Of a DNA stretch of 64,000 nucleotides, positions 2,230 through 52,751 are shown piece by piece. Position 1 is the first letter of the stretch. Each line of letters opens with the position of its first letter. A program made the translations under genes and the position numbers. The stretch lies in the NCBI RefSeq assembly GCF_000981445.1, contig NC_027218.1, forward strand, positions 1,116,001-1,180,000, read 5' to 3'. The notes beneath the pieces were generated by a model. The model saw nothing but the letters and a program-made list of their open reading frames with translations. It was not told the origin of the DNA and did no database searches. The DNA is from Babesia bigemina. Lineage: Eukaryota.

Positions 2230-2487
2230 CTACTTTGACGTCTGCTCTTGAAGTTTGGAGTAAGAAGTGGACGCTGGCGTATCGTCGACCAAGTAAGCAC
2301 GCAACTTCTTGAATCCGGGGATAGGGTACCAGGAGAGGAAAAACACGATGATGATGGCGGCGAGGATAATTGCAAGTACAACGGCGAATCTCTTCGGTCC
2401 GCAGCATGGGCATTTACAGGTGAAAAGATTAGCACAACCTTCGTCACACTTAGTGCAACCGCATTGCTTAGTACATCGCGACGCCAT
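2230..2487 (-). CDS. Small Cys-rich single-pass membrane protein, ves-island family, copy 1 (85 aa)
   Basis: MASRCTKQCGCTKC...CKCPCCG, then a hydrophobic helix FAVVLAIILAAIIIVFFL and WYPIPGFKKLR. aagATG start context. Similar to six other ORFs in the window. Confidence 0.7.
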   Translation of the reverse strand: MASRCTKQCGCTKCDEGCANLFTCKCPCCGPKRFAVVLAIILAAIIIVFFLSWYPIPGFKKLRAYLVDDTPASTSYSKLQEQTSK

Positions 2488-3428
2488 CTTACACCAAACT
2501 TCCTTTCCAATCAACCTGCAAAATAATGAACAACCTTCTAAGACGCTGGTAGCTATTTGAGATGCGATAGATTAACTGCCACGGCAGATGAATGTGGTAA
2601 TGTATTTGCAATGCTACTTTTTGCAGAATCCGAAACGTATGCCGGCAGCCCGCGTCGAATATCTGTGGCACAGTGGGTAGGCATGGAGCCACCACATACT
2701 CTATTTCTCCAAATATATAAGGCTTAGTAAATTCAAGAGCTAGAAACATTTTCATCAGAACGGCAAGCTGTAGCCTGATCAGGTCTACATACCTCCGTGC
2801 TGTAGCATCACGCAATATGAGAAAGTAGAATATTCATACTTGACATGGTGGACGGTATTATTATATTTGATTTTGTAAATATAAGAACATTGAGTTTTCT
2901 CGTGGAGATTCTGCGCTACCAGTAATAGATAGTTCGGGGCTTAACTATCGATCCGGAAGCTGAAAATGAGAGAACACCCCGAATATACCGATTTGCAGAT
3001 TTTTGTGAGAGTACATTGTGTAAATATGCTTGTCTGACATTCAAACTGCCTATGTTAACATCGTTGTCGTCCGTTCCTCTTAACGAGGTGGCTGAACATG
3101 TTATACGGATTTGTCATCCAAATGTGCCCTAATATCACCAACTGCTGCCATACGTTCCAATCAGCACATGTAAATCAGGAAAAAGAACTGGAAAATCATA
3201 GAACACGTGATTCAGGTTCAACGGTGTTTTCAGCTTTCGTATTCACAGCCCTAGAGTCGATCTCCCAAGTAGGGATACAACGACCATAGCTGAAGGGTCT
3301 TTACCGTTCTACTACATTAGCATGACCATCTGCGTTCTAAAAGCTCAATACTACAAATGCACCTTCATACTCAAACGCTTCATCGGTCATCATCACATCT
3401 CGTTATTATTATGTTTTCTCCCCTTGCA

Positions 3429-4538
3429 GTGTGCTATGTGGCAACGTGCCTAGGCCCGGTTTTCGGTTTTGCGGGACTGCCGCCTCACGCCGATACCGGT
3501 TGCGGGTTCCACGTCGGTCGGTTGCCGATCGTCACTGGTGCCATCCATCCAGTTTGGGCCCGAGGGTCTTCTACGGAATCGCAGTCTTCTCTGGGTTTCA
3601 TGTCCTTCATTAGATAATGCATAGCCTTAAAGCTTATCTGCTAGATGAAAGCTCTCCGCTTTATATCCTCAACCACGTCTCTGTATGTCCTCTTCTTGTA
3701 TGCCCGTTTCCACCAGGTCGTCTTCGTTGACAGTCCCGTTCTCCACGGTTGTGAAGGCATTCTTTATACCATCTAAGATGATGTCTTCTGGTAGAGTATG
3801 CCCTCAGCCCTTATGAGATTCCTGGGTTTGGCATGGCACATTCCATCATTTCTATAGTCCTCCAGTTGCCCTCACTGCTATTCACTCATACCATCGCCTT
3901 TCAGCTAGATAAATGTTGACTGTGCTTCACAGTTACATCAGTAAAATTCAACATTGAGGTCACATTCTCATCAATCACGCATCGAGGATTCCGTTCCCTG
4001 TAAGGGATGCGGAGGGGTGAAACGCCATTACCCTTTCCGCTTCTCATTAACGGCATGCTCACATTCGTGTAATCTCCGCCCAGTTGCTCGAGTCACATTT
4101 AGGAAGACCGTTTTAGTATTATGTTAAAACCCTGCAGTGGCGGTGGGGCAGAGCAGTAATTGCAGGGAAGCGGCATCGAATTTGATACGAATATTAACTC
4201 GCAGCTTGCATCACCTCTAGCTGTTTCTTAAGGAGCTTGAACATTGGGCTGTATTCGGGAGGCTTCAGGGCACCTCCTAAGTGGATCATTTTTTCGAGCT
4301 GTCTGGGTGCTGGCGGTTGTGATTAGGTGAGCGAGGCGGATGCTAGTTTTGTCGTGAATATCGAATACTACATCAACTGAAGAGATGCTTAAGTAATGTA
4401 GTTTGGAGCACTGAGAGAGGAGTTTGCCAGTCGTCCAGTGCGTATCGCAGTTTTTGCAGGGGAGTCAAGAGACTGCAACCTCTAATAGTTGGTGGGTCTA
4501 TTAAGGTTGCGCATACGTTGAACTTTAGTTTTTGAACT
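3429..4538. repeat. Conserved ves-upstream block, copy A
   Basis: Aligns by eye with 25761-26873 and 43620-44708, e.g. cattgaggtcacattctcatc, cagttgctcgagtcacatt, gattaggtgag. Confidence 0.9.
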
Positions 4539-7500
4539 ATGGCGCCTAAGAAGCTCACTGACTGTCCGGAGAATCTCCGTGAGTCCATCGACTGGCTCAT
4601 ACAGGTTAGGCATGGAGGTGATGGTAACGGTCTTGAGCATTTGGGCAAAGCTTTGAAGAAGCTTATTGACGAGGCTATTGAAAATGCTTATACAACTAAT
4701 GTCGATGCGCTTCTCAAGCTCCTCAAGTCTGCCAAGTCTTACACGTGTTGTGAGGATAAAGTGACTAAAATCGAGACACTTAAGAAATCCGAAAAAGCTG
4801 CTGAAAACAGATTTGATGAGATTAAGAATAACTGTGAAAGCATAAGAGGTTGCTCAAAAAAACACCTTGACTCTTCCCAACAAAAATCCTTTGGTGAGAT
4901 TGAGTCCAAGTTGGATCAGCTTAAAAATCTTAAAGAGAGTCTTAAAGGCATCACTGATGAAACGAATTGCAAAGAACTTCTGACAAATTTATGTGATGGT
5001 TTGGAAACCTTCCTCGGCTTCAATCCATCTTCCAAAGGTTACACTGGCCAGGGCATCGTGTACGGAGATCTTGACAGGTTATGCGACGGGGTGATGGCGT
5101 TCTTTCTGGGCGTGTTGGAGAGTGTTAAGGATGATGACGACGTTATGACATACGACTCCAATAACAGTATGACAAAGCTTATAGACACTTTAAAAGGGAA
5201 TATACGTAAAGGTAATGTCTGTTTCAATGATTCCATGATCAAGGTGTCGACGTGGTTGAGCAGCCACGGTGAGGAATTGGGGCTGAGAACTGGTAATGTG
5301 GTTACTGCATTACGTTCACTAAGCGGCGATATAGACACCAATATTAAGAGTGTTAAGAATGTTAATACATCCCCTGTTAAGTTTGACCAGACCGTTTCCG
5401 ATTGGATTAGGACAGTGTTGGGTGAATTGAAAAAACATCTTGCATTAACTAACAAGTACATTTGCGGGCTTGATGAGTCTTTGAAAATTAAGTTAAAAAC
5501 TGACTTTGATCAAATCTCCACGGAGGTTCATCGTCTGCGGACGAGTGCTGATAGAGACGTGGACCAGCTTAGGAAGTTGGGTAAGATATTGGATAGTCGG
5601 CTTGAATCGCTACGAATCAACATTGACAAAGCGGTGGCAAAACAAGTTAAAAAATTTCACCACTTAATGACGGAACACATTGACATAATTCATGGACAAA
5701 TTCACAAAATTGATAAAATTCTTAAGGAGTATGTCAGCGGGTTGGAGGTGTGGATACGAGAATCGGAGAGGATTTTGACGAACACTTTGGATAAAATTGA
5801 AACGATATTGGATTGTGTAAAGGATGGGCGTAATGGAAATAAAGGAGCAGGCAAAACAACCCTCATCACTGATAAATCCACTGAGATGAAAAAGAATGCG
5901 GATGCATTGTGTGGTGCGTATCAGAAGGTCAAGGAGGATGTTCAGGCACAAGCTCTAAAAGCAGTTGCTGAGATTGGTGGATTGGAAAACGTATATAAAA
6001 ATAAGCTCAATGAGATGAAGAGTAAAATTGATAGTGCGGTAACGGATGCTGCGGCGGGAGTAAAGGGATTGCATAAGGAAGTTGAAAAAGGGTTAGAAGT
6101 CTTGCGATCTACGACGATAGATAGACCGATTCAGGCGGTAATTCGAAAGCTTAAGGAGGGTATTGGGGGAGCTAGTCGGGCTGATATGGCCATTTCTATT
6201 GTTCAAGATTTTTATCTTGGTCTTGGAGGTTCGGATGATGCTCCAAAGCTGTATGAATGGTCTAATAATGTTATGGCTGGCGGTGACCTCAATAATGCCA
6301 TAAAGGAATTGCAGCAAAATGATATCGCATTCAAAAGTTTCAAAGCAGTATTAACGCAGCTGGGGACCTTTCGAGCTGGTGTTGGTGGTGCGTACGGCAA
6401 AACGTTCTTCGATGTTCTAGAGAGCGACCTTAAAGCACAAGTGAAAGCGGCTATAGGCCAAATTAAACACGCTACAGGGCAACTCAATCTATTCTTCTCT
6501 GCTTTCCATACGCAGATAACAGGTAATTCAGATGACACAGTTCATGGGAAAATACAGAAGATTAAGAAGCAGTTTGACAATGATTTTGATACCAATATAC
6601 CAGGTGAACCTAAAATTAAGACAGAGGGAAGCATACTGCAGGATTACGAAGACAAAAAAGGCGCTCTTCAAACTGCGATAAACAAAACATACAATGAGGC
6701 TTTCGAGGCGGCCAACACGATGGTCACCAACATCACCAAAAATACTTTCTTAGGTTTACATAGAGAAATTACTGCTGAACTCCAAAAAATTGCCAATATT
6801 GTTTCTAATGTATCGGTAGGTAACGACAAAGGCCTCAAAGAAATCTTGACCGAGCTTAAAAATACAAAAATTATTGCAGATCTTACCGGAATAAAAAAGA
6901 ATTTTGACACATTGCGAACTAAATTCCTGAAAGACTTGGATACAGCAGTTGACACTTTGGTGGTAGATACGCTTTCCAAATTATCCGAATCGACAATAGA
7001 ATCCATAAATCAGTATCTGAAAGATCAAGTAAAACATACAATCGACGATATTAAAACCGACGCCCTCAAGCGCTACGTCATTTCTAAAACCAATGAGCTT
7101 AATGAGTTAAAAGATTTTGTCGAGAAGAGGCGCATTGCCACCCAAAAAACTATAGATGACGATTTGGCGTCTGGAATAAAAGGATTATTAGATAATATAA
7201 GTACGTGGTTTTACAGAAATGATGACATGAAAAATGTCACCGTTTTAGTATCCATAGCGGAAAAATTTAAGGACCTAAACAACCTTCTTCACAAGTATGT
7301 TAAGTTCCAGTATGATGGCTTGGAAGTAGAAGACGCTAGAGAAGACGATGTTGATGATGTAGATTCGGATTCGGCATCGTCATCCATTGTTGCACCACCA
7401 GCAATTTCCGGCGGTTACAAACCACGACCGATAGTGCCAACATTACCACCAAATGATACACGTGCACCTCAACCTGCTGGACGTGCAGGGTATTCTGGTC

Positions 7501-9905
7501 CAGTTCATTCTTCGGCAACACCCACAAGCCAAGTGTCTACCTCCCTGCACGCGCATAAAGATCCAATTGCGGAATATTTTGTAGCACTTCATTACTATTG
7601 TGACGGACTTTTGTCAAAGATCTCTGCCAATAGGTTCACTACGTATTTTGTATCACAACGTAACGAATTTGAAAAGTTCCTCAGCGCTATGCGTCCTTTG
7701 AATTTCTCCGGTCTTGGGAGCCCGTTGCTCGACGCCCTCAAATCCGGCTTACAATCGCTTCTCATGGAACTTGGCATGGTTTACATTTCATCATACGATG
7801 GAGCGGCGTATGATTTCAACTGGGCCATTGACGGGAATTCCGAGAAATGCGCCAGGGTGTTACTGACCATACTCGAAATTCTGTATAACGATTTGCATAA
7901 ATTATGGAGGGACTGTAAGCCTGATGGTGAGTGGAACTATAATAAAATTAATTTAAAAACGGACCTTGGAAAATGTTTCAAGCAGTGTGGTTATGATGTA
8001 TCCGAAGAAGATGATTCACATGAAGGACAGCTGAGAAATAAAGAAGAGTTTAAGGGTAAACATATTTATGACCATCTCAACAACTATATTTCCGGAGCTT
8101 TCAGAAATGAGCATTTCAAAAGTTGCAAATCAGTTAAACAAAACAACTTGAATGTCGTGAACAGTATTAGCTGTTTGTTTAGTCATCTTAAAGAATACTA
8201 TAAGGCATCCCACGTCAAACATATTTATTCACCTAGGTCACCGTGCAGTATCTTTGACATGATGTGTTGGCTGACTGGCTTGCGATTTAATCCTATGAAA
8301 AACAAACTTACGGAGTACATCGCAAAATCGTATGAAAACGAAACCGATAGTGAGACTAAAAAGATGTGGTCTGACTTGTTTGCCGTACGCCTACCCGGAA
8401 TATATAGACCAACATACAACGTACTTACTACTATCCTTGGACACGGTCATGCAGACGGTATATACGCCTGCGACTTTGTCAACAATATCTTCAATTTGTC
8501 ATATCCATCCGATCCATCGAAGTGCTTTGACCTTCTAGTATCAATATTGTATAGAGTGTATGAGCAGCTTTATTTCCTGCATCAACAATGTAGATATGGC
8601 AGAACTCTGAGTGGTTGGCGTGATTGCTGGTATGGCAAGGGTGTCGCTGGGTCATCATGGCAATGCAACAATAAGCAATCTCTCAACCAAGAATGTGACC
8701 AAACATGCAAGGAAGATTACAACTGCGGTATTAAATCGCCCCTGCAATCCTTCCTTGAAGACGGCCTACCAGGGTTCCTCCCTCATTCCATAACCAAGGT
8801 TGGTTGTGGAATCACCTGTTCAATGCCCAAGCACTCTGGCATCCCATGTCGGACGCCTATGGGCTTTACAAACATAGCTCTCAAAGCGTCGCATACCCAA
8901 AAAGGTCAAAGTATCTACAGTGTGCTAGATGATATCTGTGGGTATTCAGATAAACCGCTTAGCAAAATTTGTAGTTATATGCTATGCATATTCCGTACGC
9001 CTCCGAAAACACTAGGTGACATGTTTGCCTTCTACTGTAATTTCCTCAATGGGTGGGCACAAAATGGTAAAAATCATAGGAGTTTTGCTTTCCAAAGTGC
9101 CGTCAATGGGGCTTACTTTGGAGAAATATATTCCGATCTAGACGTCAATTCAATATTCACCAACGATAAATCGAATAACCATATCAACGGCAACTTGGCG
9201 TGCCTCATTAGTTGTGATCTATCGTACACCCCTGGGCAACAATGCGGTTCATATCTAAGACCATTTTATCGTGACATCCGGGTTACATTCCCTACAGAAC
9301 ATAATAGGCAATACCTTTCGTGGGTCGTATACCTGACGGAGACGTTCTACAAATTGCTTAAAGAATTGTATGAAGAGTGTTGCGGAAATTGTAAAGCAAA
9401 GGGTACAATTTGCCATGAAAAAAGCTGTTATCAGAATTGTCCGATAAAAAAATCCCCAAATCCGTCATCCACATCCGAACATGACGCTTCTTGCAAGTCC
9501 ATCGTTCACTGCACGTCTACGCTTCCCACCCTATGCAAATATGGTCTCTACTTTGGAAGCGCAAAATGGATTGCTGGCAAAGAAAGCCACAGGGTGAAGC
9601 GGACGTGCAATGATTTTTGCAGCGCCTTAGCAAACGTAATTTCGGAACAATCTGTCCTGGCCAGATTAGTACATAACACAATCCCGAATTTCCTATGGGC
9701 CATCCGCGTCCCTTTCTTCCACACCACCGTCGCCCTCTGGCTCCTCTCGCTGCTGTACCTCATCTATGTCTGCGTGGGAAGATTAGACCTCCTCCACATC
9801 AAATCGCATTTGCACTCACCCTCATCACATCGCATCGCCGCGCAATCACTACTTGCCGCCGCGCGTATCAACAAGCTCAACAAAGTGCTGTACCTGCAAC
9901 CTTGA
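4539..9905 (+). CDS. ves1-like variant erythrocyte surface antigen (ves1b/'Ebh-like' type), 1788 aa, intronless
   Basis: N-term KKLTDCPENLRESIDWL; GYTGQGIVYGDLDRLCDGVM; CGIKSPLQSFLEDGLPGFLPH; C-terminal TM helix and RLDLLHIKSHLHSPSSHRIAAQSLLAAAR...YLQP. Confidence 0.9.
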   Translation: MAPKKLTDCPENLRESIDWLIQVRHGGDGNGLEHLGKALKKLIDEAIENAYTTNVDALLKLLKSAKSYTCCEDKVTKIETLKKSEKAAENRFDEIKNNCESIRGCSKKHLDSSQQKSFGEIESKLDQLKNLKESLKGITDETNCKELLTNLCDGLETFLGFNPSSKGYTGQGIVYGDLDRLCDGVMAFFLGVLESVKDDDDVMTYDSNNSMTKLIDTLKGNIRKGNVCFNDSMIKVSTWLSSHGEELGLRTGNVVTALRSLSGDIDTNIKSVKNVNTSPVKFDQTVSDWIRTVLGELKKHLALTNKYICGLDESLKIKLKTDFDQISTEVHRLRTSADRDVDQLRKLGKILDSRLESLRINIDKAVAKQVKKFHHLMTEHIDIIHGQIHKIDKILKEYVSGLEVWIRESERILTNTLDKIETILDCVKDGRNGNKGAGKTTLITDKSTEMKKNADALCGAYQKVKEDVQAQALKAVAEIGGLENVYKNKLNEMKSKIDSAVTDAAAGVKGLHKEVEKGLEVLRSTTIDRPIQAVIRKLKEGIGGASRADMAISIVQDFYLGLGGSDDAPKLYEWSNNVMAGGDLNNAIKELQQNDIAFKSFKAVLTQLGTFRAGVGGAYGKTFFDVLESDLKAQVKAAIGQIKHATGQLNLFFSAFHTQITGNSDDTVHGKIQKIKKQFDNDFDTNIPGEPKIKTEGSILQDYEDKKGALQTAINKTYNEAFEAANTMVTNITKNTFLGLHREITAELQKIANIVSNVSVGNDKGLKEILTELKNTKIIADLTGIKKNFDTLRTKFLKDLDTAVDTLVVDTLSKLSESTIESINQYLKDQVKHTIDDIKTDALKRYVISKTNELNELKDFVEKRRIATQKTIDDDLASGIKGLLDNISTWFYRNDDMKNVTVLVSIAEKFKDLNNLLHKYVKFQYDGLEVEDAREDDVDDVDSDSASSSIVAPPAISGGYKPRPIVPTLPPNDTRAPQPAGRAGYSGPVHSSATPTSQVSTSLHAHKDPIAEYFVALHYYCDGLLSKISANRFTTYFVSQRNEFEKFLSAMRPLNFSGLGSPLLDALKSGLQSLLMELGMVYISSYDGAAYDFNWAIDGNSEKCARVLLTILEILYNDLHKLWRDCKPDGEWNYNKINLKTDLGKCFKQCGYDVSEEDDSHEGQLRNKEEFKGKHIYDHLNNYISGAFRNEHFKSCKSVKQNNLNVVNSISCLFSHLKEYYKASHVKHIYSPRSPCSIFDMMCWLTGLRFNPMKNKLTEYIAKSYENETDSETKKMWSDLFAVRLPGIYRPTYNVLTTILGHGHADGIYACDFVNNIFNLSYPSDPSKCFDLLVSILYRVYEQLYFLHQQCRYGRTLSGWRDCWYGKGVAGSSWQCNNKQSLNQECDQTCKEDYNCGIKSPLQSFLEDGLPGFLPHSITKVGCGITCSMPKHSGIPCRTPMGFTNIALKASHTQKGQSIYSVLDDICGYSDKPLSKICSYMLCIFRTPPKTLGDMFAFYCNFLNGWAQNGKNHRSFAFQSAVNGAYFGEIYSDLDVNSIFTNDKSNNHINGNLACLISCDLSYTPGQQCGSYLRPFYRDIRVTFPTEHNRQYLSWVVYLTETFYKLLKELYEECCGNCKAKGTICHEKSCYQNCPIKKSPNPSSTSEHDASCKSIVHCTSTLPTLCKYGLYFGSAKWIAGKESHRVKRTCNDFCSALANVISEQSVLARLVHNTIPNFLWAIRVPFFHTTVALWLLSLLYLIYVCVGRLDLLHIKSHLHSPSSHRIAAQSLLAAARINKLNKVLYLQP

Positions 9906-10633
9906 TACATCACCTCACCACCACTCACCTAACTCACTTAACTAGCAACCCACCGCCTAACCTAATACTCACCCAACTATATTACCTAATGTATACTCAG
10001 CAATATGGCAGTTACTGTAGTTCATGCATTAATAGGTTCGTGGTTTGGGATGTCGAGTTGTGAGTTAGCTGTGAAACGTGCCAACGTCCTCCCATGGTTT
10101 CAGTGGGCAGTGATGTTGGGTGGTAGGTTACTGATGTAGGCTAATTACAAGTCTTATGACTAGTGAAAGTGCGCCGTGTTCAACGTGATTGTTTGGCATA
10201 TTAGTCTTCTGCTCTGGTAGGCAATTAATCTACCCGGGGCGCTAATGTGATAGCCAGTAGACGGCGTGGTTGACAGTGATAGTAGCAGCGTCAATGAGAA
10301 ACGTATTAACCAGGTATTATAGCTCACTTAGACCGTCATTAGTGAACAAATGTAACAGCAGTCTTAGGCACTGCCAATGTCGGATAGTCTGATGGATGGA
10401 GTTGACTCAACGACTGACAACGGTTGACCTGCATGCCACGGCCAGGATACCGTCTACATGCGTAGCTTAGAACGTTTTGATGTTGTGATAGCTGCGTAGT
10501 CATGATGTGACTTGCAGTGCGTTGGACGGCGGTCATCTGGCTGCTACCGTAACGCCGATGGGGGACTTTCAATGTCCGAGCCTGAGGTACGTCATTCGTG
10601 GTTTGTGCGTTAATTGGAAGAGACAGAAGAACG
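9906..10633. repeat. Conserved ves-downstream spacer, copy 1
   Basis: Homologous to 32013-32733, 51585-52310 and the reverse complement of 59911-60641 (C-rich tail, gatgtcgagttgtg, ggttgacctgcatgccacggc). Confidence 0.88.
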
Positions 10634-11089
10634 ATGGTGCTAGATTGTAGTTGTGTTACTAGTTGTCACTATTTGGGGGACTGTAGTTGCTGTCCCTGGT
10701 GTTGTGCCGGATGTAGTGGTAGTGACCAATGCAGTTCATGTATAGCATTAAACAGTGAGCGCAAAGAAAGCCAGGAGTGCCCTCTTTCCGTATGTGTGAA
10801 TCAATGTAGACAGTGTAGCAATCCCGGATGTAAATGCCCATGCCCATGTTGTAAAACTAAAAACCCAGATACACTCTCTGCCAACTGCAATCAACATTCC
10901 ACTCGGACACGATCTGATTCTACTTTTGCCGTTCAATCTAGTGCCTCAACTTCCCCCAGAATAACCCTTTTTACCACCACGATCGTTCCCATCACCATCA
11001 TTCTAGTAATTATCATCGTCATATGCATTATGAGCGTCTTTCGCATTCGGACATTCCACAAGGTCCGCAGTTATTTCGCCAGCCGATGA
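10634..11089 (+). CDS. Small Cys-rich single-pass membrane protein, copy 2 (151 aa)
   Basis: CSCCPWCCAGC...CKCPCPCCK, Ser/Thr linker, TM IVPITIILVIIIVICIMSV, then FRIRTFHKVR. Confidence 0.75.
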   Translation: MVLDCSCVTSCHYLGDCSCCPWCCAGCSGSDQCSSCIALNSERKESQECPLSVCVNQCRQCSNPGCKCPCPCCKTKNPDTLSANCNQHSTRTRSDSTFAVQSSASTSPRITLFTTTIVPITIILVIIIVICIMSVFRIRTFHKVRSYFASR

Positions 11090-22852: not shown

Positions 22853-23191
22853 TTAGGCATAGAATCTCCGCCTACGAAATTTTCTTTTGAAGATTGGAAT
22901 CGAATTCCAGCAGACGAAATATATAAAGTTGGCTATGATTACGACGGTTGTAACTAAGCCGCCGATACAATAGGCCATACACGTCCCACATATTTCCCTT
23001 TTCTTTTCTGCCTCCAAACAGAATTTGCAACTACAACATCCGTCACAACACCAGGGACAACATTTACATGGTTTTTTGCCACCGGATTCGTTCTTCTCAG
23101 GTTTTTTGTTATCGCATCCTGGTTCCTCATTATCTCCTTTTTTACATGTACACTCATCACTTCCAGCTCTCTGAGGCGCTACCGGACTCAT
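22853..23191 (-). CDS. Small Cys-rich single-pass membrane protein, copy 3 (112 aa)
   Basis: KPCKCCPWCCDGCCSCKFC, TM IGGLVTTVVIIANFIYFVC, basic tail IPIFKRKFRRRRF. tgcag-gaagATG start context. Confidence 0.72.
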   Translation of the reverse strand: MSPVAPQRAGSDECTCKKGDNEEPGCDNKKPEKNESGGKKPCKCCPWCCDGCCSCKFCLEAEKKREICGTCMAYCIGGLVTTVVIIANFIYFVCWNSIPIFKRKFRRRRFYA

Positions 23192-25422: not shown

Positions 25423-25677
25423 ATGAAGAGCGGGGATTGTAGTTGTCGAGGTTCAGGTGACGGTGGAACGGGGAAGAGGCCGTGTACCAGCTCTTGTTCG
25501 GGTTGTGGGAGTGGGTTAGATTGTATATGCAAATGTTGTAAACCTCTCCAATGCGGATTTTATGGCGGGTTAGTTACCTTACTCATTGTAACATTCACAT
25601 GCTTTATTGTCTTTCGCATATGGCCATTCCACAAAGTCCGTGGCTGGCTAGATAGCAAGCGAAAGATGTCAGCCTAA
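25423..25677 (+). CDS. Small Cys-rich single-pass membrane protein, copy 4 (84 aa)
   Basis: CICKCCK, TM GGLVTLLIVTFTCFIV, FRIWPFHKVR. Upstream 39-nt GT-AG intron-like segment at 25357-25395. Confidence 0.72.
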   Translation: MKSGDCSCRGSGDGGTGKRPCTSSCSGCGSGLDCICKCCKPLQCGFYGGLVTLLIVTFTCFIVFRIWPFHKVRGWLDSKRKMSA

Positions 25678-32733: not shown

Positions 32734-33117
32734 ATGAGCAGTGGATGTACGTGTAAATTGCCATGTAATGGCAGGCGTTGTACGTGTTGTCCATGGTGTT
32801 GTAAAGTATGCAAGATGGTAGGGCGGTGTGGAACGTGCAATATGTACTTACAACGCTACACCACTTGTTATCCTGCTGCGTGTCCGAGATGTACCGTTGA
32901 ATATGGTATGACGTGTGACTGTCCATGCTGCAAAACTGACGTAATACTTCCCGTCACAACCTCTGTCATCATCATCATCATCATCGCCATATGCGTCATG
33001 AGCGTCTTTCGCATTCGACCGTTCCACAGGGTCCGCGATTTCTGCGCCCGCAAAATGAGCGGTTCACATCGCACTCAACTCTTGGTGTCTGACATGAACG
33101 GCACAATACTTGTCTAA
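32734..33117 (+). CDS. Small Cys-rich single-pass membrane protein, copy 5 (127 aa)
   Basis: CTCCPWCCKVC...CDCPCCK, TM VTTSVIIIIIIAICVMSV, FRIRPFHRVR. aagATG context. Confidence 0.78.
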   Translation: MSSGCTCKLPCNGRRCTCCPWCCKVCKMVGRCGTCNMYLQRYTTCYPAACPRCTVEYGMTCDCPCCKTDVILPVTTSVIIIIIIAICVMSVFRIRPFHRVRDFCARKMSGSHRTQLLVSDMNGTILV

Positions 33118-43619: not shown

Positions 43620-44708
43620 ATATTTACATGCTCATAGTCTTCTCTGGGTATCATCTCTCATTATTTTATGCGTCTCTTGGATCACTACCCGTTGTATGTG
43701 GGCTTCCACGCGATCCGATATGCCCAGGTCCCGTCTATACTTGTTGTGGTCTTTTGTCACTATTCCCTCTCACGTCATAACGTAGGGGATAACCCTGATC
43801 TTGGTCTGATGGTTAAACTGTCGCGCCTTGAGATCCTCGATAAGGTCTTCATACGTCTGCTTCTTGAACTTATCCGTCTCCACCGGATTGCCTTCGCCGA
43901 CAGTCCCGTTATCCAAGGTTGTGAATGCGTCATTTATACTATCTACTATGTTGTCTTCTGGTAGAGTATGCTCTCAGCCCTCATGAGACTCCTGAGTTTG
44001 GCATGGCAATTTCCATCATTACTATGGTCCTCCACCTAACCCTTACTGCTCTTCACTCATACAGTCGCCTTTCAGCTAGATAGATCTTGACTGTGCTACA
44101 CAGTCACATCAGTAATCTTCCATATTGAGGTCACATTCTCATCCATCATGCGTCGAGGATTCCGTTCCATGTAAGGGATGCGGAGGGGTGAAACGCCTCT
44201 GCCCTTTCCGCTTCTCGATTACAGCATGCTCATATTCGTGTAGTCGCTACCCAGTTGCTCGAGTCACATTCAGGAATGCCATATTAGTATTATGTTAAAA
44301 CCGTGCAGTATCAGTGGGGCGGACCATATATATTTGTAGAACGGGATAGAATTTGATGCGAATATTAACTCGCAGCTTGCATCACGTCTAGCTGTTTCTT
44401 AAGGAAGTTGAACATTGGACTGTAGTTGCGAGCATTCAGGGCACCTCCGAAGTGGATTGTAATTTCAAGCTGTCTGGGCGCTGGTGGTTGGGATTAGGTG
44501 AGATAGGCGGATGCTAGTTTTGTGGTGAATTTCAAATACGCCATCAATAGGGTAGATGCTTAAGTAATGTAGTTAAGAGCAGTGGGAGAGGAGTTTGCCA
44601 GCCGTCCAGTGCTTATCGCGTTTTCAGAGCGTGGTAGAGGATCTGCAACATCGAAGTGCTATTGGGTTCCTTGAAGTTGTGTATATGGTAATCCCTTGAA
44701 ATTTAAGG
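43620..44708. repeat. Conserved ves-upstream block, copy C
   Basis: Homologous to copies A and B; more divergent at its left end. Confidence 0.85.
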
Positions 44709-47700
44709 ATGGCACCGCAATTTAAGAAACTCACCGACTGTCCGGAAAATCTGCGGGAAGCCATCGATTGGCTTATCCAAGTGAGGCATGGTAATGGTGA
44801 GAATGGTGAGGGTCTTACCAAGTTGTCTCAAGCTTTGACAACCTTGATACAAGATGCAATTGATAAGGCCAGAGAAAGCATCCAACACAAACAAGATAAG
44901 CTTGATTGCTCGAAAGAACTTTCTCTTGGTTTCACTTATTGTAGACAGCTTGATGGCCAAATCAAGCAAGCTGAAGAGGAAATTAAAATGTTACACGAAG
45001 GCGATAAAGCTATGAAAGATAAATTAAATTCGAAAATAAACGGCATCAAAACCCTTAAAGAAAATTGTATTAAATCCCACTACATTGATGAACAACGTCG
45101 GTCTTCCCTCAGTCAGGAAATCGAAGACGCCACTAAAGTTGTTAGAAAGCTAGAAGAATTCACAAAGGATCTTGATAATTCTAAAAATGATAATAATATA
45201 CTTAGTAAGCTATGTTCCGGTCTCGAGACCTTCCTGGGTTATACGTCTGGTAATTATACAGGCCAAGGCATCGTGTACGGTGATTGTGATCGATTTCGGG
45301 ACGCTGTTCTAATGTTCTTCCATGGCGTGTTGGATAGCGTTAAGGAGAATGAGTCTGTTATGACGTATGATAAAGATCCAAACAACAATCTTAGCAGCGC
45401 GCTCCTTAGAATAAAGGAGCTCATACATCACGGCCATGGAGCGTTTTATCAGGCGTTTGAGGCTGTGAGTAGGGCGTTGCAGACGTGGGATGAGGACTTG
45501 GCGATGAGAACTAGAAACGTCAATAAACAATTCAGCAATTTAAAAGATGTATTAGAAAATGAAGTCAATGAATTCTCGAAGGAGCAGGGTAATTCTCTAA
45601 CAGAGCAATTTGCCCGTTGGGATGAGACCGCTGCGCACTTAGTTGACATGACAGATGCAGCCGACAAAATGATAGGAGATTTAGATTCTGGACTCCGAAA
45701 GAAACTTGAGCCTCCTGTAACGGCTATTAGAGAGGCAGTGAAAATGTTGAAAAGGTCGTCGTCGGACAACGGCATGATTAAGGTCGTTGACACTCTCCAG
45801 AAGACGTTGGACAACATACCAGGGGAAGTTGAAAAGTTTATCGAAGATAACGCTAATAAAACTGTGGAAAAACATAAGAACCAGGTTGAAGACTTCAAAA
45901 AGAATGTAAAAAGAGATATGAATGCTTTGCGTGATGCATACGTAAAGGAACATCTTGCGGTGGCCCAGACTGATTTGTCTATGGCTGTCAACACTTTCAG
46001 AAAAAATGCTAAGAATCTTGGAGGATTGAAGAACACCGTGATGCATAAAGCGATTGAAGCAATTGATAAAGTATTTGATAATGTTGATAATGTCGTCGCC
46101 GATAATGGTACATTAAATGCGTTGGCAAGTGACCCAATTAACGTGCAGACAAAATTGATTTATCAGGAACTAAATACAGAATGGAAGCCAAGTGATGGTT
46201 GGAAAAGTCTACGTTCTAATATAGGTAGACCTCAAGATATATTCACCAACACATATGAAACTGGTTTGAAGAGTCTGGTTAACAAAACCAAAAATGATTT
46301 AGATAAAGCTCTTGAGTGCGCCAGCAGCAATGCCAAAAATTTGGGCGGTTTGAATAATGAGGCAGTCAGGGCGGTTATAAGTAATATTCAAAAAAAGTTG
46401 GAGGAAGTGGATACTCAGATTACTTCTATGAAGCAGCTTATGGGTTTGGAAAGTGATTTTATGGCTGGACAGATTAGCACTATTGCTCATACAAAAAACC
46501 AGGGCGCTACATCCGTGTCAATTCATGTAGATGATTTGAATGTCACAATTGGCAAGGCTGATGCAATATTTAATACAACCCACAACAATACATTGGAGGA
46601 GTTGGCAGGAAAATCTCAAAAAACGTTGGCGCATATTTTTGCGAAGGCTCAAGAATGCATCGAGACGCACGGGGGATTAAATAATGCTGTAGTTGTAAGT
46701 GTTATGAGGGAAATTGAAACGAAGTTGGAGACTGAAGCCGACAGAGTCGTTACCATCGAAAAGCTTAAGCAGTTGAAAACTGGGTTCATGGAAGGACAAA
46801 TTATGAAAATTACCAAGGCTAAAAACAGAGAAGGTATAACGCTATCAAGTCATATAAATGATCTGAGTGAAACTATCGGTGAGCCCGAAGTAAATTTTAA
46901 AACGTATCAAGCCGCGTTAGAAAGTTTGGTTGAGCAGACAGAACAGACTTTGAAGAAAGCTATCGAAAATGCAAAAACATATCTTGAGACACCGCAAACC
47001 TCTCTTCAGAGAAAGATGCTAGATGCTTATGGCATTGTTTTGGGGACCTCGAACAAAACTAGAATGGGTGAGGCTGCAGTTTTGGCGGGGCGTGTGGGGG
47101 ATGCGATCAAACAGCTAAATGTATTCGCTAAAAAATTCACAGGCAAACATAATATAGAAGGAAAGTTCCCAAACCTAGATAGTTATGGCGAAGCATTAAA
47201 AGAAGACGTCAGAAGGAAGTTAGAAACACATGGCAATGATGATGATGAAATATCTCGATGGATTACGAGCTCCACTAGTAACTTGATTTCTAGTGTCTTT
47301 AAAGAAGCAAACGAGCAAATAAGTAAGGTTGATAACGCTTATCGGGTGGCAGTGGATCGGGAACTTAACGCTATCAAATTGAAGATAACAGAATTTAAGA
47401 ATAAAGCCGAGAAAAATGAGCTTGGAAATTTTCACAGTATAATACATTCTAATTTTCAATCAATTAACAGAGCCATCGACACTAATTCAGCTTACCAGGA
47501 AGATCACAAATCTAGAACCGATTATTTCACAAAGGTTATAGAAATTATAAATCATACCGTTGATTCCCTTCAAACTGCCTATCAAAAAGCCTATCAGAGT
47601 TCTGCAAAGTCTTATCTAAGCGGTGCGATTCGTAAAATTAAGGTGGCGGTGCAGGGGGCTGAGTCGCAATATAAGCTGGAAATGACTCAGCTGCGTTCAC

Positions 47701-50700
47701 AAATTGAAGCGGCTGTTAGCGCTATAGAAGACAGAGCAAAAAAAGATGAATTTGATCAAGTAATCTCCGACATTGACACACCATTCTCAAAACTCACTGT
47801 CGCCATCACTACTAAATCAGTGTTCCAAGACGATGTAGCCGCCCGAGAAACTTATTTTAATAACCTTAAAGACGTTATTAATAATACACTAGAAAACTTA
47901 AAAATTGCATATCACAAAGCATATCAGAGTTCAGCAAAATCGTATCTTCAAATAGCGATTGGAATGATTAAAAAAAAGGTTGGAGATGCGGAATCGGCCT
48001 ACGAGTTGGCGGTTAAGACTAACATTCTTACCATTAAGAAATTGATTAATGGGGTTGAACATTCAAAGTTGACACAAGCGGAAACTAGAAAGAAATTAAG
48101 CAAAGACTTTGATGAACCTTTCAGCACATTGATCTCTGCAGTCACCACGAATTCTGCCTTCACGAACGATGCAACATCCCGTAAAAGGTGCTTTGAACAA
48201 TTACAAACTGTAATAATCCACACCATGGAAACCCTCTCCGCCGCATATGAAAGGGCCTATCAGAGCGCCGCGAAGACGTATCTTAGACAAGAGACAAAGA
48301 AACTTAAGGAAGTTCTTAATGCGGCTGAAGACCGTTATGTGAAGGCTATAAAAGGAGATGTTGAAAAAATTATGACTGCAATTTCAAGCATCAAGGATTC
48401 CCTGTTCAAGAGTGCAGATCATCGAAAGACTTTGGAAACATTGTTCATCGAACCATTTCGAAATCTGCAAGAGACTGTTAAAAAGAATTCTGTATTCAAA
48501 ACAGATTATGAATTTCGTAATCAATGTTACAAAAAACTCGAATCAATCAGTGTTGGAGTAATTAGAACACTGGTTGAAGCTGCGAACAAGTTTGAGAATT
48601 GTGTTGAGCTTGCAGATCACTATTTGAAAGAAGCCCTCAACAATGCAAAACGTGGTATTAAAACACATGAAAACAACACACAGGTGCAAGTCAAAAAAAG
48701 TTTCGAAGACATAATTGAAGACGTCTATAAAATGTTTACCGTAGAGTGCAAAGCGCACTTAAGAGCCTTAAAGGATTTGGTTAAGGAGCAATTGAAAGAG
48801 ATAAAAACGATACTTGCTTATGATGTCGCCAGTGGAGTCAAAGGTATGCTAAAAAAACTTGGAGGTCAACTTTTGAAGAAAGTAAGAGAAATTAGTTCCT
48901 CTCAATCTACACTGAGGTGGGCGGCGAAGAATCTTCGGGATGGATTTGAAGAGTTTTTTGACGACTTTGAACAATTTGATGAAGTGCAGGAGATGATGGC
49001 CAACATTAACAAAGTGAAAGAGAAATTGAATTTACTCTTTCGACAACTTGAGGGTTCCCAGCACTTCGACCATCTCGTCACAAACAAACGCGAGGACTTT
49101 GAAAAGGTGCTAGAAGCATTCTCAGTTGATACATTCTCAGATGCCACCAAAGCTGTCGTATCACCCCTCAAGAGCGGCCTCCGCAACTTCACTGACCAAC
49201 TCGGCCACGCGTACGTGAGTAGGTATAGCGGTATTAAATTCCACGGTGACTTGTGGAAAACTAAACAGGTTGAGAACGGAGAAAATCCCAACAACTTCAA
49301 GCAATCTGTTGAAAAGTTAACCACTGAGGGCCGTAACTGCGCCAAGGTCTGCCTGACGATTCTCGACATTTTAGATCGTGACTTGGTAGAATTAATGAAT
49401 AAATGTGATGGTGGTAGTCAGTGGAATTGCTATAATATCCATTTAGGTCAAGTCAAAAAACCTCATGAAATACATAATCGACAAAACACGGGAAAAATAC
49501 AAAATCCGCTCGGGCTCTTTTTTAGGGACTGTGGATACACTGTTCCATCTGATGAATTGAAGAACGATGCCCAGTTGAATAACAAGTCGGAATTCAAAGG
49601 TAAGAATATTCATGATTTATGTGTCGAGTATATTACCGGCTTGACGGAAGGAACGAAAAAGGTTTTGAACTTGCATTACGAAGTCAAGGATAACAAAATA
49701 GAATTCTACAAACTTCTTAAGGTTTGTTACACTATGTTCGACAAGTATCGCTACGTCAGCCACCTTAAGCATATTCCCATCGCGAGATCACCTACCAATG
49801 TCAATGAAATGCTACATTGGTTTACCGGCCTTTATTGGAATCCAGTTCATAAGAAACTAAAAGATCGCCTCAATAGCTTGCTAAAAGAGCAAATCGATGA
49901 GTATCAGTTGCCAAGTACGAATATACCGGCTACCATGCCGTATGGAGACTACTGGACCAGGGGAACTGTGAACATCATGGACTTCACTAAGGTATTCGAG
50001 AATGTAATTACACGTTCACCTAGGATATTAGTGACGATCCTGGGACATGGTGACGCCGATGGACGATACGCCTGTGACTTCTTCACCAACCCAGATGATT
50101 TACTGTACCCATCCAGCCCAGATCAGTGCTTAGATATGCTCGTTGATATAGCGCTTAGATTGAATCACCAAATTCGTTTCCTGTACAAAATGTGTCACAA
50201 CGGCAAACGCAGCAGTGGTTGGCGTGATTGCCAATATGGTAAGCACATCGCTGGGTCAGCATGGAACTGCAACACGTACCAATGTAATGAGCAGGACTGC
50301 GACCAAAAGCACAAGCCAATCGCCAACCAAACGGGTGACCAAAATAGCAAGTGCGGCATCAAGTCACCCCTCCAGTCCTTCTTGGAAGATGGTTTGCCAG
50401 GCTTCCTACCACATTCCTTCAAGAAGCCTGGTTGCAAATTGGAATGTTCGGTGAGCAATCACAGAGGCATACCGTGCAAAACGCCGATGGGTTTCCGCGA
50501 CCTCAGTATAGTTGCCTCTCACAGACGAACCGGCCAGGCTCTTAGGAAAGTGCTTGATGGGTTCTGTGGTATAACTAACGAATCGTTGAGCCTACTTTGC
50601 ACCTATTTCCTATGCCTACTGCGCCGCCCACCGCAGACACTGTGTGACATGTTCGCATTCTACCACAACTTCCTGGAGCAGTGGACGGGTGCTTACGGGA

Positions 50701-51584
50701 ATCACGCCGATGTCAAGAAACATAAGAAGGAAGCATTCGAGAAAGCCGTCAAGGAAGCCAACTTCAGTATCGAGGACACCACGTTAGACGTCACATCCTT
50801 ACAAGATGGAAGAGATCACGGCAAGCACTACGATGATGGCAACAAGAAGCATACCGGCGACCTGTTTAGTCTTATATGTTGTGAACCTGGGAAGCCTGCG
50901 ACACTACCATGTGGGTCATATCTGCAGCCTCTGTCTCTCGACATCCGCTGCGTTTTCTCCTCAACGTACGCTTCACTGTACATGTCGTGGATTGTCTACA
51001 TGACTGAGACCTTTTATAGCTTACTCAAAGAATTATATGAGAAGTGCTGCAACAGCTGCAATAAGAAGGGACGGAGATGTTACGACCGCACTTGCGCTGA
51101 GAAGTGTGAAGTGAAGTATACATCAAAGACAGACTTCAAGACACTCAAGGATCAAAATCACACCAATGAATGCAGCTCAATCGTCAACTGCCGCGATACC
51201 CACGCTACTATATTCGCTGCCGGATTCACTTTCGGCAGTCCTTTTGAAATGAGTGGCGAGAAAAATGACAACACTAAACGTACTTGCCAAGATTTTTGCG
51301 AAGCGTTGAAAAAGGTATGCTCCGACAGTTCTGTGCTCGCGAAACTAGTTCACGTCACGATTCCCCAATTTTTATGGCAGATCAGGGAGAAATTCTTCTG
51401 GACTACCGTGGCTCTCTGGTCCGCCTCATTCCTCTACCTCATCTATGTAATGGTTGGCAGACTGGATCTCCTCCACATCAAATCGCATCTGCACTCACCT
51501 TCCTCCCATCGCATCGCCGCCCAATCACTACTCGCCGCCGCACGTGTCGGCAAAATTGCCAAGATCACCTACCTGCAACCTTGA
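44709..51584 (+). CDS. ves1-like variant erythrocyte surface antigen, 2291 aa, with internal ~110-aa repeats
   Basis: KKLTDCPENLREAIDWL N-terminus, conserved Cys-rich C-terminal domain, TM and YLQP tail. Confidence 0.9.
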   Translation: MAPQFKKLTDCPENLREAIDWLIQVRHGNGENGEGLTKLSQALTTLIQDAIDKARESIQHKQDKLDCSKELSLGFTYCRQLDGQIKQAEEEIKMLHEGDKAMKDKLNSKINGIKTLKENCIKSHYIDEQRRSSLSQEIEDATKVVRKLEEFTKDLDNSKNDNNILSKLCSGLETFLGYTSGNYTGQGIVYGDCDRFRDAVLMFFHGVLDSVKENESVMTYDKDPNNNLSSALLRIKELIHHGHGAFYQAFEAVSRALQTWDEDLAMRTRNVNKQFSNLKDVLENEVNEFSKEQGNSLTEQFARWDETAAHLVDMTDAADKMIGDLDSGLRKKLEPPVTAIREAVKMLKRSSSDNGMIKVVDTLQKTLDNIPGEVEKFIEDNANKTVEKHKNQVEDFKKNVKRDMNALRDAYVKEHLAVAQTDLSMAVNTFRKNAKNLGGLKNTVMHKAIEAIDKVFDNVDNVVADNGTLNALASDPINVQTKLIYQELNTEWKPSDGWKSLRSNIGRPQDIFTNTYETGLKSLVNKTKNDLDKALECASSNAKNLGGLNNEAVRAVISNIQKKLEEVDTQITSMKQLMGLESDFMAGQISTIAHTKNQGATSVSIHVDDLNVTIGKADAIFNTTHNNTLEELAGKSQKTLAHIFAKAQECIETHGGLNNAVVVSVMREIETKLETEADRVVTIEKLKQLKTGFMEGQIMKITKAKNREGITLSSHINDLSETIGEPEVNFKTYQAALESLVEQTEQTLKKAIENAKTYLETPQTSLQRKMLDAYGIVLGTSNKTRMGEAAVLAGRVGDAIKQLNVFAKKFTGKHNIEGKFPNLDSYGEALKEDVRRKLETHGNDDDEISRWITSSTSNLISSVFKEANEQISKVDNAYRVAVDRELNAIKLKITEFKNKAEKNELGNFHSIIHSNFQSINRAIDTNSAYQEDHKSRTDYFTKVIEIINHTVDSLQTAYQKAYQSSAKSYLSGAIRKIKVAVQGAESQYKLEMTQLRSQIEAAVSAIEDRAKKDEFDQVISDIDTPFSKLTVAITTKSVFQDDVAARETYFNNLKDVINNTLENLKIAYHKAYQSSAKSYLQIAIGMIKKKVGDAESAYELAVKTNILTIKKLINGVEHSKLTQAETRKKLSKDFDEPFSTLISAVTTNSAFTNDATSRKRCFEQLQTVIIHTMETLSAAYERAYQSAAKTYLRQETKKLKEVLNAAEDRYVKAIKGDVEKIMTAISSIKDSLFKSADHRKTLETLFIEPFRNLQETVKKNSVFKTDYEFRNQCYKKLESISVGVIRTLVEAANKFENCVELADHYLKEALNNAKRGIKTHENNTQVQVKKSFEDIIEDVYKMFTVECKAHLRALKDLVKEQLKEIKTILAYDVASGVKGMLKKLGGQLLKKVREISSSQSTLRWAAKNLRDGFEEFFDDFEQFDEVQEMMANINKVKEKLNLLFRQLEGSQHFDHLVTNKREDFEKVLEAFSVDTFSDATKAVVSPLKSGLRNFTDQLGHAYVSRYSGIKFHGDLWKTKQVENGENPNNFKQSVEKLTTEGRNCAKVCLTILDILDRDLVELMNKCDGGSQWNCYNIHLGQVKKPHEIHNRQNTGKIQNPLGLFFRDCGYTVPSDELKNDAQLNNKSEFKGKNIHDLCVEYITGLTEGTKKVLNLHYEVKDNKIEFYKLLKVCYTMFDKYRYVSHLKHIPIARSPTNVNEMLHWFTGLYWNPVHKKLKDRLNSLLKEQIDEYQLPSTNIPATMPYGDYWTRGTVNIMDFTKVFENVITRSPRILVTILGHGDADGRYACDFFTNPDDLLYPSSPDQCLDMLVDIALRLNHQIRFLYKMCHNGKRSSGWRDCQYGKHIAGSAWNCNTYQCNEQDCDQKHKPIANQTGDQNSKCGIKSPLQSFLEDGLPGFLPHSFKKPGCKLECSVSNHRGIPCKTPMGFRDLSIVASHRRTGQALRKVLDGFCGITNESLSLLCTYFLCLLRRPPQTLCDMFAFYHNFLEQWTGAYGNHADVKKHKKEAFEKAVKEANFSIEDTTLDVTSLQDGRDHGKHYDDGNKKHTGDLFSLICCEPGKPATLPCGSYLQPLSLDIRCVFSSTYASLYMSWIVYMTETFYSLLKELYEKCCNSCNKKGRRCYDRTCAEKCEVKYTSKTDFKTLKDQNHTNECSSIVNCRDTHATIFAAGFTFGSPFEMSGEKNDNTKRTCQDFCEALKKVCSDSSVLAKLVHVTIPQFLWQIREKFFWTTVALWSASFLYLIYVMVGRLDLLHIKSHLHSPSSHRIAAQSLLAAARVGKIAKITYLQP

Positions 51585-52310: not shown

Positions 52311-52751
52311 ATGGGCGATACATGTGAATGTGGTAATATATGTAAGCAAGAAATTTGTATATGCTGTCTCAGGTGTTGTGATGGCTGTTTGGATGTCAGG
52401 TGCCTTAATTGCATTCTCGTAAAATCGATCAGCGAAGGCGTACTTACATGTAGGCCTGAGGACTGTCAAAAAGTGTGTAAGAAAAAACCCTGTGAATGTG
52501 AATGTTGTGTAGGCGAAGATGCACGCTTTGCTGCCGCTACCTCCTATTTCACCAGTCGACAGCATTCCATCGAAGCCGCTAGATCCCCAAATATTTCCGC
52601 TTCCACGGGTCTAAGCGCCTATATCATCGTTACAATCATAGTCATCCTCACCGCCGTATGCGTTATGAGCTTCTTTCGCATTTGGCCGTTCCACAAGGTC
52701 CGTGATTGTTTCGCCCGCAGATTGCCGTTTTGCATCGCATTTTATAATTAA
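52311..52751 (+). CDS. Small Cys-rich single-pass membrane protein, copy 6 (146 aa)
   Basis: CICCLRCCDGC...CECECC, TM YIIVTIIVILTAVCVMSF, FRIWPFHKVR, tail LPFCIAFYN. Confidence 0.78.
   Translation: MGDTCECGNICKQEICICCLRCCDGCLDVRCLNCILVKSISEGVLTCRPEDCQKVCKKKPCECECCVGEDARFAAATSYFTSRQHSIEAARSPNISASTGLSAYIIVTIIVILTAVCVMSFFRIWPFHKVRDCFARRLPFCIAFYN

What the first reader, a model, noticed from the sequence alone, without database searches (positions are those of the whole stretch)
3429..11089. Stereotyped duplicated cassette: upstream block - ves1-like gene - ~0.72 kb spacer - Cys-rich gene
The unit recurs at 3429-11089, 25761-33117 and 43620-52751, and inverted (3' half visible) at 59527-64000. 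All four ves1-like genes are followed co-directionally by a Cys-rich gene. The stop-to-ATG spacer is nearly constant (728, 721, 726, 731 nt), although the central ves coding regions are barely alignable. Inference: the pair is copied and kept as a two-gene module, perhaps co-regulated during antigenic switching.
Basis: partly seen in the sequence, partly recalled or inferred. Interest (0 to 1): 0.8.

Follow-up and report, generated by a model that had tools for sequence, protein, structure and literature searches.

The report
Retrotransposon-edged ves1b cassette with Cys-rich partner
In a Babesia blood parasite, each of four large surface-antigen genes is followed by a small cysteine-rich membrane-protein gene, and the three whose start is visible sit behind the broken end of a retrotransposon, which likely served as the handle that copied these gene pairs to new places in the genome.

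Summary
The cassette is real: four ves1b-type genes are each followed, 721-731 nt after the stop, by a small Cys-rich single-membrane-helix gene, through homologous spacers (68-76% identical). Its outer part is the broken 3' end of a Babesia bigemina non-LTR retrotransposon, facing away from ves1b. It is an old fossil patched with young element DNA at two different junctions. In a public annotation, 5 of 10 element genes directly neighbour a ves1b/ves1ba gene (background 2%). Block and spacer differ far less between copies (about 20-30%) than silent sites of the ves gene between them (64-76%), so the flanks act as a conserved shell with exchangeable contents. The Cys-rich gene belongs to an unnamed family (35 further clusters; 10 of 10 looked up are B. 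bigemina hypothetical proteins). It is not tied to ves1b: 3 of 7 window copies and several named ones lie elsewhere. Best reading: recombination with retroelement copies spread the locus, and the small gene has its own promoter. Co-switching with ves1b is untested. New variant of the known ves-plus-small-gene arrangement.

The parts
3428..3484 (-). 3' UTR of the retrotransposon remnant; left edge of block 1 (weaker likeness runs ~30 nt further left)
   Evidence: follows the element's stop; 86% identical to block 2; matched by RNA-type contigs
3485..3845 (-). Broken C-terminal part of a non-LTR retrotransposon ORF: old part (aa 1184-1262) joined to young part (aa 1303-1347); frameshift, stop and 40-codon gap
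   Evidence: tblastn with P0002, E 7e-18; 33/41 identical in the young part, 13/29 and 10/30 in the old
3846..4538 (.). Inner upstream block, no protein homology found; likely ves1b promoter and 5' UTR
   Evidence: 3705-4538 differs by 19-21% among three copies; no hit with an RT-family profile
4539..9905 (+). ves1b-type gene, copy 1, 1788 aa, one ORF
   Evidence: family label inferred from architecture
9906..10633 (+). Spacer 1 (728 nt): ves 3' UTR plus likely promoter and 5' UTR of the Cys-rich gene
10420..10442 (+). Conserved spacer motif containing TGCATGC (also 32538-32560, 52112-52134, and 60101-60123 on -)
10634..11089 (+). Cys-rich single-TM gene, copy 1, 151 aa
25760..26876 (.). Upstream block 2; retrotransposon remnant at 26166-25817 (-) with the same stop and 40-codon gap as block 1
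   Evidence: young part 39/45 identical to P0002
26877..32012 (+). ves1b-type gene, copy 2, 1711 aa
32013..32733 (+). Spacer 2 (721 nt), with a predicted 22-nt GT-AG intron at 32687-32708
32734..33117 (+). Cys-rich single-TM gene, copy 2, 127 aa
33314..33366 (+). Remnant of another ves 3' coding end, downstream of copy 2
   Evidence: 79% to 51513-51565, E 1e-6
43633..44708 (.). Upstream block 3; retrotransposon remnant at 43973-43653 (-): old part passes in register into a young part (aa 1228-1305); the element's last codons and 3' UTR are absent
   Evidence: tblastn E 9e-37; 68/77 identical in the young part, 6/29 in the old
44709..51584 (+). ves1b-type gene, copy 3, 2291 aa
51585..52310 (+). 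Spacer 3 (726 nt)
52311..52751 (+). Cys-rich single-TM gene, copy 3, 146 aa
59527..59910 (-). Cys-rich single-TM gene, copy 4, 127 aa
59911..60641 (-). Spacer 4 (731 nt)
60642..64000 (-). ves1b-type gene, copy 4, 3' half (runs off the window)
25423..25677 (+). Fifth Cys-rich gene with the same FRIxPFH tail, 84 aa, ending 83 nt before block 2; no spacer in front of it
2230..2487 (-). Cys-rich TM gene of a second subtype, 85 aa, not downstream of a ves gene
   Evidence: family profile hit E 2e-4
22853..23191 (-). Cys-rich TM gene of the second subtype, 112 aa; shares a weakly similar upstream stretch with 2487-2230
   Evidence: 2602-2687 vs 23322-23407, 69%, E 0.004; not hit by the profile

Best explanation
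The unit is a repeated ves1b-type locus made of a broken retrotransposon 3' end, a conserved upstream region, the large antigen gene, a conserved spacer and a small Cys-rich membrane-protein gene, and it was likely copied to new chromosomal sites by recombination between its old retrotransposon fossil and young copies of the same element. Shown: the anatomy, the retrotransposon origin of the block's outer part, old-to-young junctions at two different places, and flanks far more alike than silent sites of the ves gene. Inferred: the young element DNA marks landing sites; the inner block works as the ves1b promoter; gene conversion later swaps coding sequence inside the shell; the spacer holds the ves 3' UTR and a separate promoter for the small gene; its product has the same predicted topology as VESA1 (no signal peptide, Cys-rich part outside, basic tail inside) and would be a second variable surface protein switched on with its neighbour by shared chromatin.
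For: Block remnants match a 1347-aa B. bigemina RT protein (RVT_1 E 5e-30; nearest solved structures LINE-1 and R2). Young parts: 68/77, 33/41, 39/45 identical; old parts 6-13 of about 30. The old part shows pN about equal to pS among blocks (33 codons). Left edges of blocks 1 and 2 both end at the element's 3' UTR. In a published cluster table, 5 of 10 chromosomal element genes are within one accession of a ves1b/ves1ba gene (background 2.1%) and 8 of 10 within four (6.7%). A 948-aa element gene stands directly before a forward-strand ves1b. RT and ves sequence are fused in one B. caballi and one B. ovata gene model. Four-fold sites in the ves C-terminal domain differ at 64-76%, the block at 19-21%, the spacer at 24-32%. 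Cys ORFs stay open with 17-19 of 19-21 cysteines kept per pair. An RNA-type contig begins 139 nt before the spacer motif. PMC4066756 reports 28 interstitial ves1b loci as unexplained lineage-specific insertions.
Against: No empty pre-insertion site could be examined, and only three blocks were seen. Block 3 does not end at the element's 3' end. Retroelements and ves genes may simply collect in the same tolerant regions. 0 of 4 short annotated element tails lie within four accessions of a ves1b, and my prediction that the gene between tail CDR94624 and Cys gene CDR94626 is a ves1b failed: it is not in the table. The adjacency count takes accession order as gene order, and one of the ten entries is itself labelled ves1ba. 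One RNA-type contig bridges a ves 3' end to the spacer motif, which fits read-through or overlap as well as a separate promoter; another runs 3.57 kb past the motif, much longer than a Cys-rich gene. The mosaic test on spacer sites is only modest (p 0.02). No homology was identified that would resolve the right-hand end, apart from one ves-tail remnant.
Confidence: 0.5

Rival explanations
1. Ordinary segmental duplication: an ancestral ves1b locus that happened to carry a dead element and a downstream Cys-rich gene was duplicated as a block. Young elements later inserted into or converted the fossil, without any role in moving the locus.
For: Blocks 1 and 2 share the same stop and 40-codon gap, so they descend from one event. 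Block 3 has a different edge. The Cys family exists away from ves genes. A ves-tail remnant after copy 2 suggests an ancestral tandem array.
Against: All three visible left edges end in young element DNA, from two independent junctions. Flanks are much closer than silent sites, which needs constraint or conversion on top of duplication.
Confidence: 0.33
2. Retrotransposition: an RNA running antisense through the pair and ending in the element's 3' UTR is reverse-transcribed by the active element, so the cassette is a non-autonomous retroposon carrying ves1b as cargo.
For: Blocks 1 and 2 end at the element's 3' end and keep its last ~45 codons and UTR in young form, as LINE-tailed elements do (recalled). 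The ves ORFs are uninterrupted. Element sequence is present in RNA-type contigs.
Against: No target-site duplication or clean A-tail was found. Block 3 lacks the tail. All four right ends keep the Cys gene and about 100 nt more, whereas 5' truncation would be expected to vary.
Confidence: 0.12
3. The spacer is only a long ves 3' UTR and the Cys-rich ORF is a passenger on, or second cistron of, the ves transcript.
For: One contig of run X1 bridges a ves1a-type 3' end, spacer-like DNA and the motif.
Against: In run X3 the motif-bearing contig starts inside the spacer and the ves 3' end lies on a separate contig. Family members also stand alone among housekeeping genes. Contigs cannot show single transcripts.
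Confidence: 0.2

Closest known systems
B. bigemina ves1b dispersed loci (PMC4066756; abstract, sections 20, 22, 23, passages, supplement table seen)
   Same: Large ves1 genes inserted between housekeeping genes; fast-changing coding sequence; exchange between loci by gene conversion.
   Different: The parts I read describe no conserved upstream block, no retroelement link and no downstream companion gene, and state that no smORF homologue was found.
B. bovis ves1 clusters with smORF genes and the head-to-head LAT (PMC6630957, passages seen)
   Same: A small multigene family sits beside ves genes; co-regulation was suggested and is unresolved.
   Different: SmORF has a signal peptide, an RxxL motif and repeats and is secreted. 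This protein has no N-terminal hydrophobic stretch, 20-22 Cys in the four cassette copies and one TM helix. The head-to-head neighbour here is a dead retroelement, not a second ves gene.
LINE-like elements of B. bigemina, B. ovata and B. caballi (PMC9141347 sections 7-9; PMC10463595 passages; PMC5660447 passages and Table S2 rows)
   Same: The element family itself is reported.
   Different: The parts I read do not link it to ves loci or describe fossils upstream of ves1b.
Trypanosome ingi/RIME and L1Tc elements beside VSG, RHS and trans-sialidase genes (recalled; only a search listing of PMC5814959 seen)
   Same: Non-LTR retroelements associated with surface-antigen multigene families.
   Different: Different parasite lineage and element type; no test was made here.

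Membership tests
ves1 (ves1b branch) | Conserved C-terminal domain with one TM helix and short tail; no signal peptide | tested here: met
   193 invariant columns over 530 among four copies, TM and tail seen
ves1 (ves1b branch) | Degenerate P(K/R)TIREILYWLSALPYS motif (PMC6630957) | tested here: met
   read by eye in the translations, e.g. PSTVRDMLHWLCGLFHN in copy 2; motif
ves1 (ves1b branch) | Pfam VESA1_N match or clustering with labelled ves1b genes | tested here: inconclusive
   no VESA1_N hit on the four proteins; no call labelled them; ves1b is my assignment from size, single ORF and recalled end motifs
smORF | Cleaved signal peptide, RxxL motif, A/B repeats, no TM | tested here: not met
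   7 of 7 window ORFs have a TM helix and no hydrophobic N-terminus; RxxL before the TM in 1 of 7 (hydropathy only)
CKRD domain of B. bovis VESA1 | Sequence homology to the cysteine- and lysine-rich domain | tested here: inconclusive
   no VESA1_N hit on 7 window and 16 database members; no B. bovis sequence was compared directly
Non-LTR retrotransposon with restriction-like endonuclease (source of the block) | Non-LTR-type RT domain in a single long ORF | tested here: met
   P0002: RVT_1 E 5e-30; all 10 structure hits are LINE-1, R2 or RT-labelled proteins
Non-LTR retrotransposon with restriction-like endonuclease (source of the block) | C-terminal Cys-His knuckle and PD..D/E endonuclease | tested here: inconclusive
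   motifs visible in P0002; the B. ovata relative aligns in order to the R2 C-terminal region but not significantly on its own
Non-LTR retrotransposon with restriction-like endonuclease (source of the block) | 5'-truncated copies sharing the 3' end | tested here: met
   cluster of nine models of 60-1072 aa; 4 of 5 short ones read end at the same C-terminus
Non-autonomous retroposon (whole cassette) | Target-site duplication, 3' tail, fixed 3' end | tested here: not met
   no target-site duplication; fixed end in 2 of 3 blocks
Co-regulated expression locus | Joint transcription in clones | not testable with these tools
   only unstranded contigs of one study were available

The most novel reading that the evidence does not exclude
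B. bigemina spread its variant-antigen loci with the help of an active non-LTR retrotransposon, having turned a dead copy into the ves1b upstream region, and each dispersed locus carries an unrecognised second variant family of small Cys-rich surface proteins that supplies, as a separate subunit, the Cys-rich domain and partner chain that VESA1b lacks in this species (where VESA1a was not detected).
Probability: 0.15. Interest if true: 0.85.

Novelty: new variant of a known kind. Interest (0 to 1): 0.62.

Why it matters
Most apicomplexans have few or no mobile elements, and how ves1b genes reached scattered interstitial sites was left as an anomaly in the genome paper. A retroelement fossil at the edge of each visible locus, patched with young element DNA, gives a mechanism that existing strain genomes can test. 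The Cys-rich genes form a sizeable, fast-evolving, partly unannotated family with the predicted topology of VESA1. They are candidates for a second variable surface antigen, relevant to how B. bigemina persists and to diagnostics or vaccines.

Tried and rejected
No whole genome is held, so genome-wide counts rest on public tables. Word-index search with the 7-sequence Cys alignment: 0 of 3192 candidates passed; the full HMMER scan later found 35, so the first blank was a sensitivity limit. Pfam: no family at its cut-off for 13 window proteins or 16 Cys-family members. ESM Atlas: no usable hit. AlphaFold model of copy 4: pLDDT 70, pTM 0.42, only the helix confident; Foldseek found nothing at E<=0.001. 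Complex prediction of the ves C-terminal 500 aa with its Cys-rich neighbour: no answer, score 0.00, alignments not used; no evidence either way. Rfam: one tRNA only. Conserved RNA structure in spacer or block: no window low in all copies. Target-site duplications: only chance 9-11-mers. No RNA holder was listed for the stretch; no listed RNA-type piece lay on the Cys ORFs of copies 1, 3 or 4 at 80% likeness, which shows nothing about silence. 0 of 8 named Cys genes appear in the 366-protein proteome table of PMC4066756; small Cys-rich TM proteins are easily missed. An upstream ATG in the spacers is out of frame with the Cys ORF after the predicted intron in copies 3 and 4 and stopped in copy 2, so it was rejected as the start (by eye). 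A multi-exon gene in the block was considered and dropped once the RT homology appeared. Paper searches found no description of the cassette or the Cys family; subscription journals and unread supplements (file 1 and figures of PMC4066756, Table S1 and GFF of PMC5660447, all of PMC9141347 and PMC10463595) may hold one. Earlier scan findings: nothing relevant.
Full report
Observation. The repeat is as described. Self-BLAST links 3428-4691 with 25760-27035 (81%) and 3659-4634 with 43827-44816 (80%), and links the ves 3' end and spacer of all four copies at 72-75%, the last inverted. Stop-to-ATG distances are 728, 721, 726 and 731 nt. The spacers are homologous along their length, 68-76% identical, so their constant length is a result of common descent. 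A 23-nt motif containing TGCATGC occurs once in each, with none expected by chance. The units sit among housekeeping genes such as a chaperonin subunit, alpha-tubulin and an adaptin-like gene (translations; names recalled). Homologues place the window in Babesia bigemina or a very close relative. Named records used below may come from the same genome as the window, so they extend the count but are not an independent isolate.

The large genes. They are single ORFs of 1711-2291 aa with a conserved C-terminal domain, one TM helix and a short tail and a degenerate form of the ves1 signature motif given in PMC6630957. Pfam VESA1_N does not match them. No call labelled them; ves1b is my assignment.

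The upstream block. A 67-codon open stretch on the minus strand of block 3 found two B. bigemina reverse-transcriptase proteins. The long one, P0002 (1347 aa), has RVT_1 at E 5e-30, is closest to LINE-1 and R2 among solved structures, and ends in a Cys-His knuckle and a PD..D-type region. It has ten near-identical cluster members, and a second cluster holds short 3' fragments. tblastn places its C-terminal region on the minus strand of all three blocks: 3845-3488, 26166-25820 and 43973-43653. All are broken. Each remnant is a composite. Residues 1198-1262 match the intact element at only 6-13 of about 30, and the first 33 codons show pN about equal to pS among blocks. Young parts match at 68/77 (block 3, from residue 1228, in register) and 33/41 and 39/45 (blocks 1 and 2, from residue 1303, after a shared 40-codon gap). 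Blocks 1 and 2 end on the left at the element's 3' UTR; block 3 ends about 200 nt earlier. The inner 700 nt show no RT homology even with a five-sequence profile.

Association beyond the window. Table S2 of PMC5660447 labels 81 B. bigemina genes ves1b or ves1ba and lists an RT cluster. I dropped one myb-labelled entry and the 14 entries on unplaced contigs. Taking accession order as gene order, 5 of 10 chromosomal RT genes are next to a ves1b/ba gene (background 2.1%) and 8 of 10 within four (6.7%); one of them is itself labelled ves1ba. A 948-aa RT gene stands directly before a forward-strand 257-kDa ves1b. Against this, 0 of 4 short annotated tails lie near a ves1b, one being next to a ves1a. 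One B. caballi model fuses RT with VESA1_N, and one B. ovata ebh-labelled model ends in a piece of the element. The element family is already reported (PMC9141347 sections 7-9; PMC10463595 passages); the link to ves loci was not in the parts I read.

The small gene. The four cassette ORFs (127-151 aa, 20-22 Cys) have no hydrophobic N-terminus, one TM helix and a basic tail, which predicts the topology of VESA1. They keep 17-19 of 19-21 cysteines per pair while pN is 0.33-0.46 and pS 0.54-0.69 (alignment uncertain). A profile search of 1.84 billion proteins gave 35 clusters at E<=0.001; 10 of 10 looked up are B. bigemina hypothetical proteins; 25 were not looked up. Five window ORFs tried by exact look-up were not in the collection. 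No Pfam family or fold was assigned. A GT..AG micro-intron of 22-23 nt is predicted just before the ATG in copies 2 and 3 (GC..AG in 4, no acceptor in 1); 14 of 35 database models carry a leader that reads like the spliced form. The family is not bound to ves1b: three window copies lie elsewhere, and of 8 named chromosomal members 3 are within two accessions of a ves1b, 1 is next to a ves1a, 1 is three from a ves1a, 2 sit among housekeeping genes and 1 has no labelled ves near it. Arrayed ves1b genes only 1.2 and 1.4 kb apart cannot hold the whole unit (labels mapped by accession offset). The share of ves1b genes with a companion could not be measured.

Shell and contents. Four-fold sites of the ves C-terminal domain differ at 64-76% between copies, while 3705-4538 differs at 19-21% and the spacers at 24-32%. 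Either the flanks are constrained, or the loci are young and their coding parts were replaced from an older repertoire. PMC4066756 infers such gene conversion. Informative sites along the ves tail and spacer are mildly clustered (31 changes against 38.7 expected, p 0.02).

Reads. Runs X1-X3 (one study, RNA by guess) come from a relative with 44 differences in 1441 nt of the chaperonin gene; their contig leaves the window at an AG at 491-492 and continues in what reads as coding sequence, which suggests spliced RNA (inference). They hold the element's 3' end. An X1 contig bridges a ves1a-type 3' end, spacer-like DNA and the motif. An X3 contig starts 139 nt before the motif and runs 3572 nt beyond it, which I cannot explain. 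Another X3 contig of 1141 nt starts near spacer position 130 and has the length of spacer plus Cys gene, but only 46 nt of it were laid. Contigs cannot show single transcripts, strand or level. DNA run X4 holds several distinct contigs on the block (11 at 44429), the distal spacer (8 at 60136) and the Cys gene's end (6 at 59531), so more variants exist in another sample.

Mechanism. I put 0.5 on spread by recombination between the fossil and young element copies, because all three visible edges end in young element DNA from two separate junctions and the element is enriched beside ves1b. Passive duplication with later element traffic gets 0.33 and retrotransposition of the whole unit 0.12; no target-site duplication was found. 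For expression, a separate promoter in the spacer is more likely than read-through. TGCATGCA is a known ApiAP2 site but is over-represented in most apicomplexan genomes (PMC2841118, passage), so the motif alone is weak evidence. Co-switching is untested.

Comparison and verdict. It works like the B. bovis ves-plus-smORF neighbourhood but the small gene fails the smORF test. Ten paper searches found no account of the cassette, the fossil or the Cys family in the open library. Real, a new variant of a known kind, interest 0.62.

Noticed in passing
window 53923-54690 (-): A ves2-like ORF (label recalled), about 255 aa, covered by close RNA-type contigs in runs X1 and X3.
   Followed up: partly
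window 56774-57535 (-): 3' fragment of a ves1a-type gene (label recalled) with no spacer or Cys gene downstream of it in the window, although a related RNA-type contig joins such an end to spacer-like DNA.
   Followed up: partly
window about 59100-59250 (-): Stretch that looks by eye like a decayed ves 3' UTR, downstream of Cys gene 4; not found by BLASTN.
   Followed up: no
run X3, record 21: A 3763-nt contig carries the spacer motif 139 nt from its start and continues 3572 nt; the long downstream part is unexplained and may be a long gene using the same promoter.
   Followed up: no
window 47522-47617 and 47852-47947: Internal repeat of about 110 codons' period inside ves copy 3.
   Followed up: no
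window 15673-15755 (+): A tRNA gene.
   Followed up: no
P0028 (B. caballi) and P0029 (B. ovata): Gene models that join retroelement and ves-like sequence; likely insertions in or beside ves genes in two other species.
   Followed up: partly
P0034 and P0057: Database models with two Cys-family tails in series, suggesting tandem pairs of the small gene.
   Followed up: no
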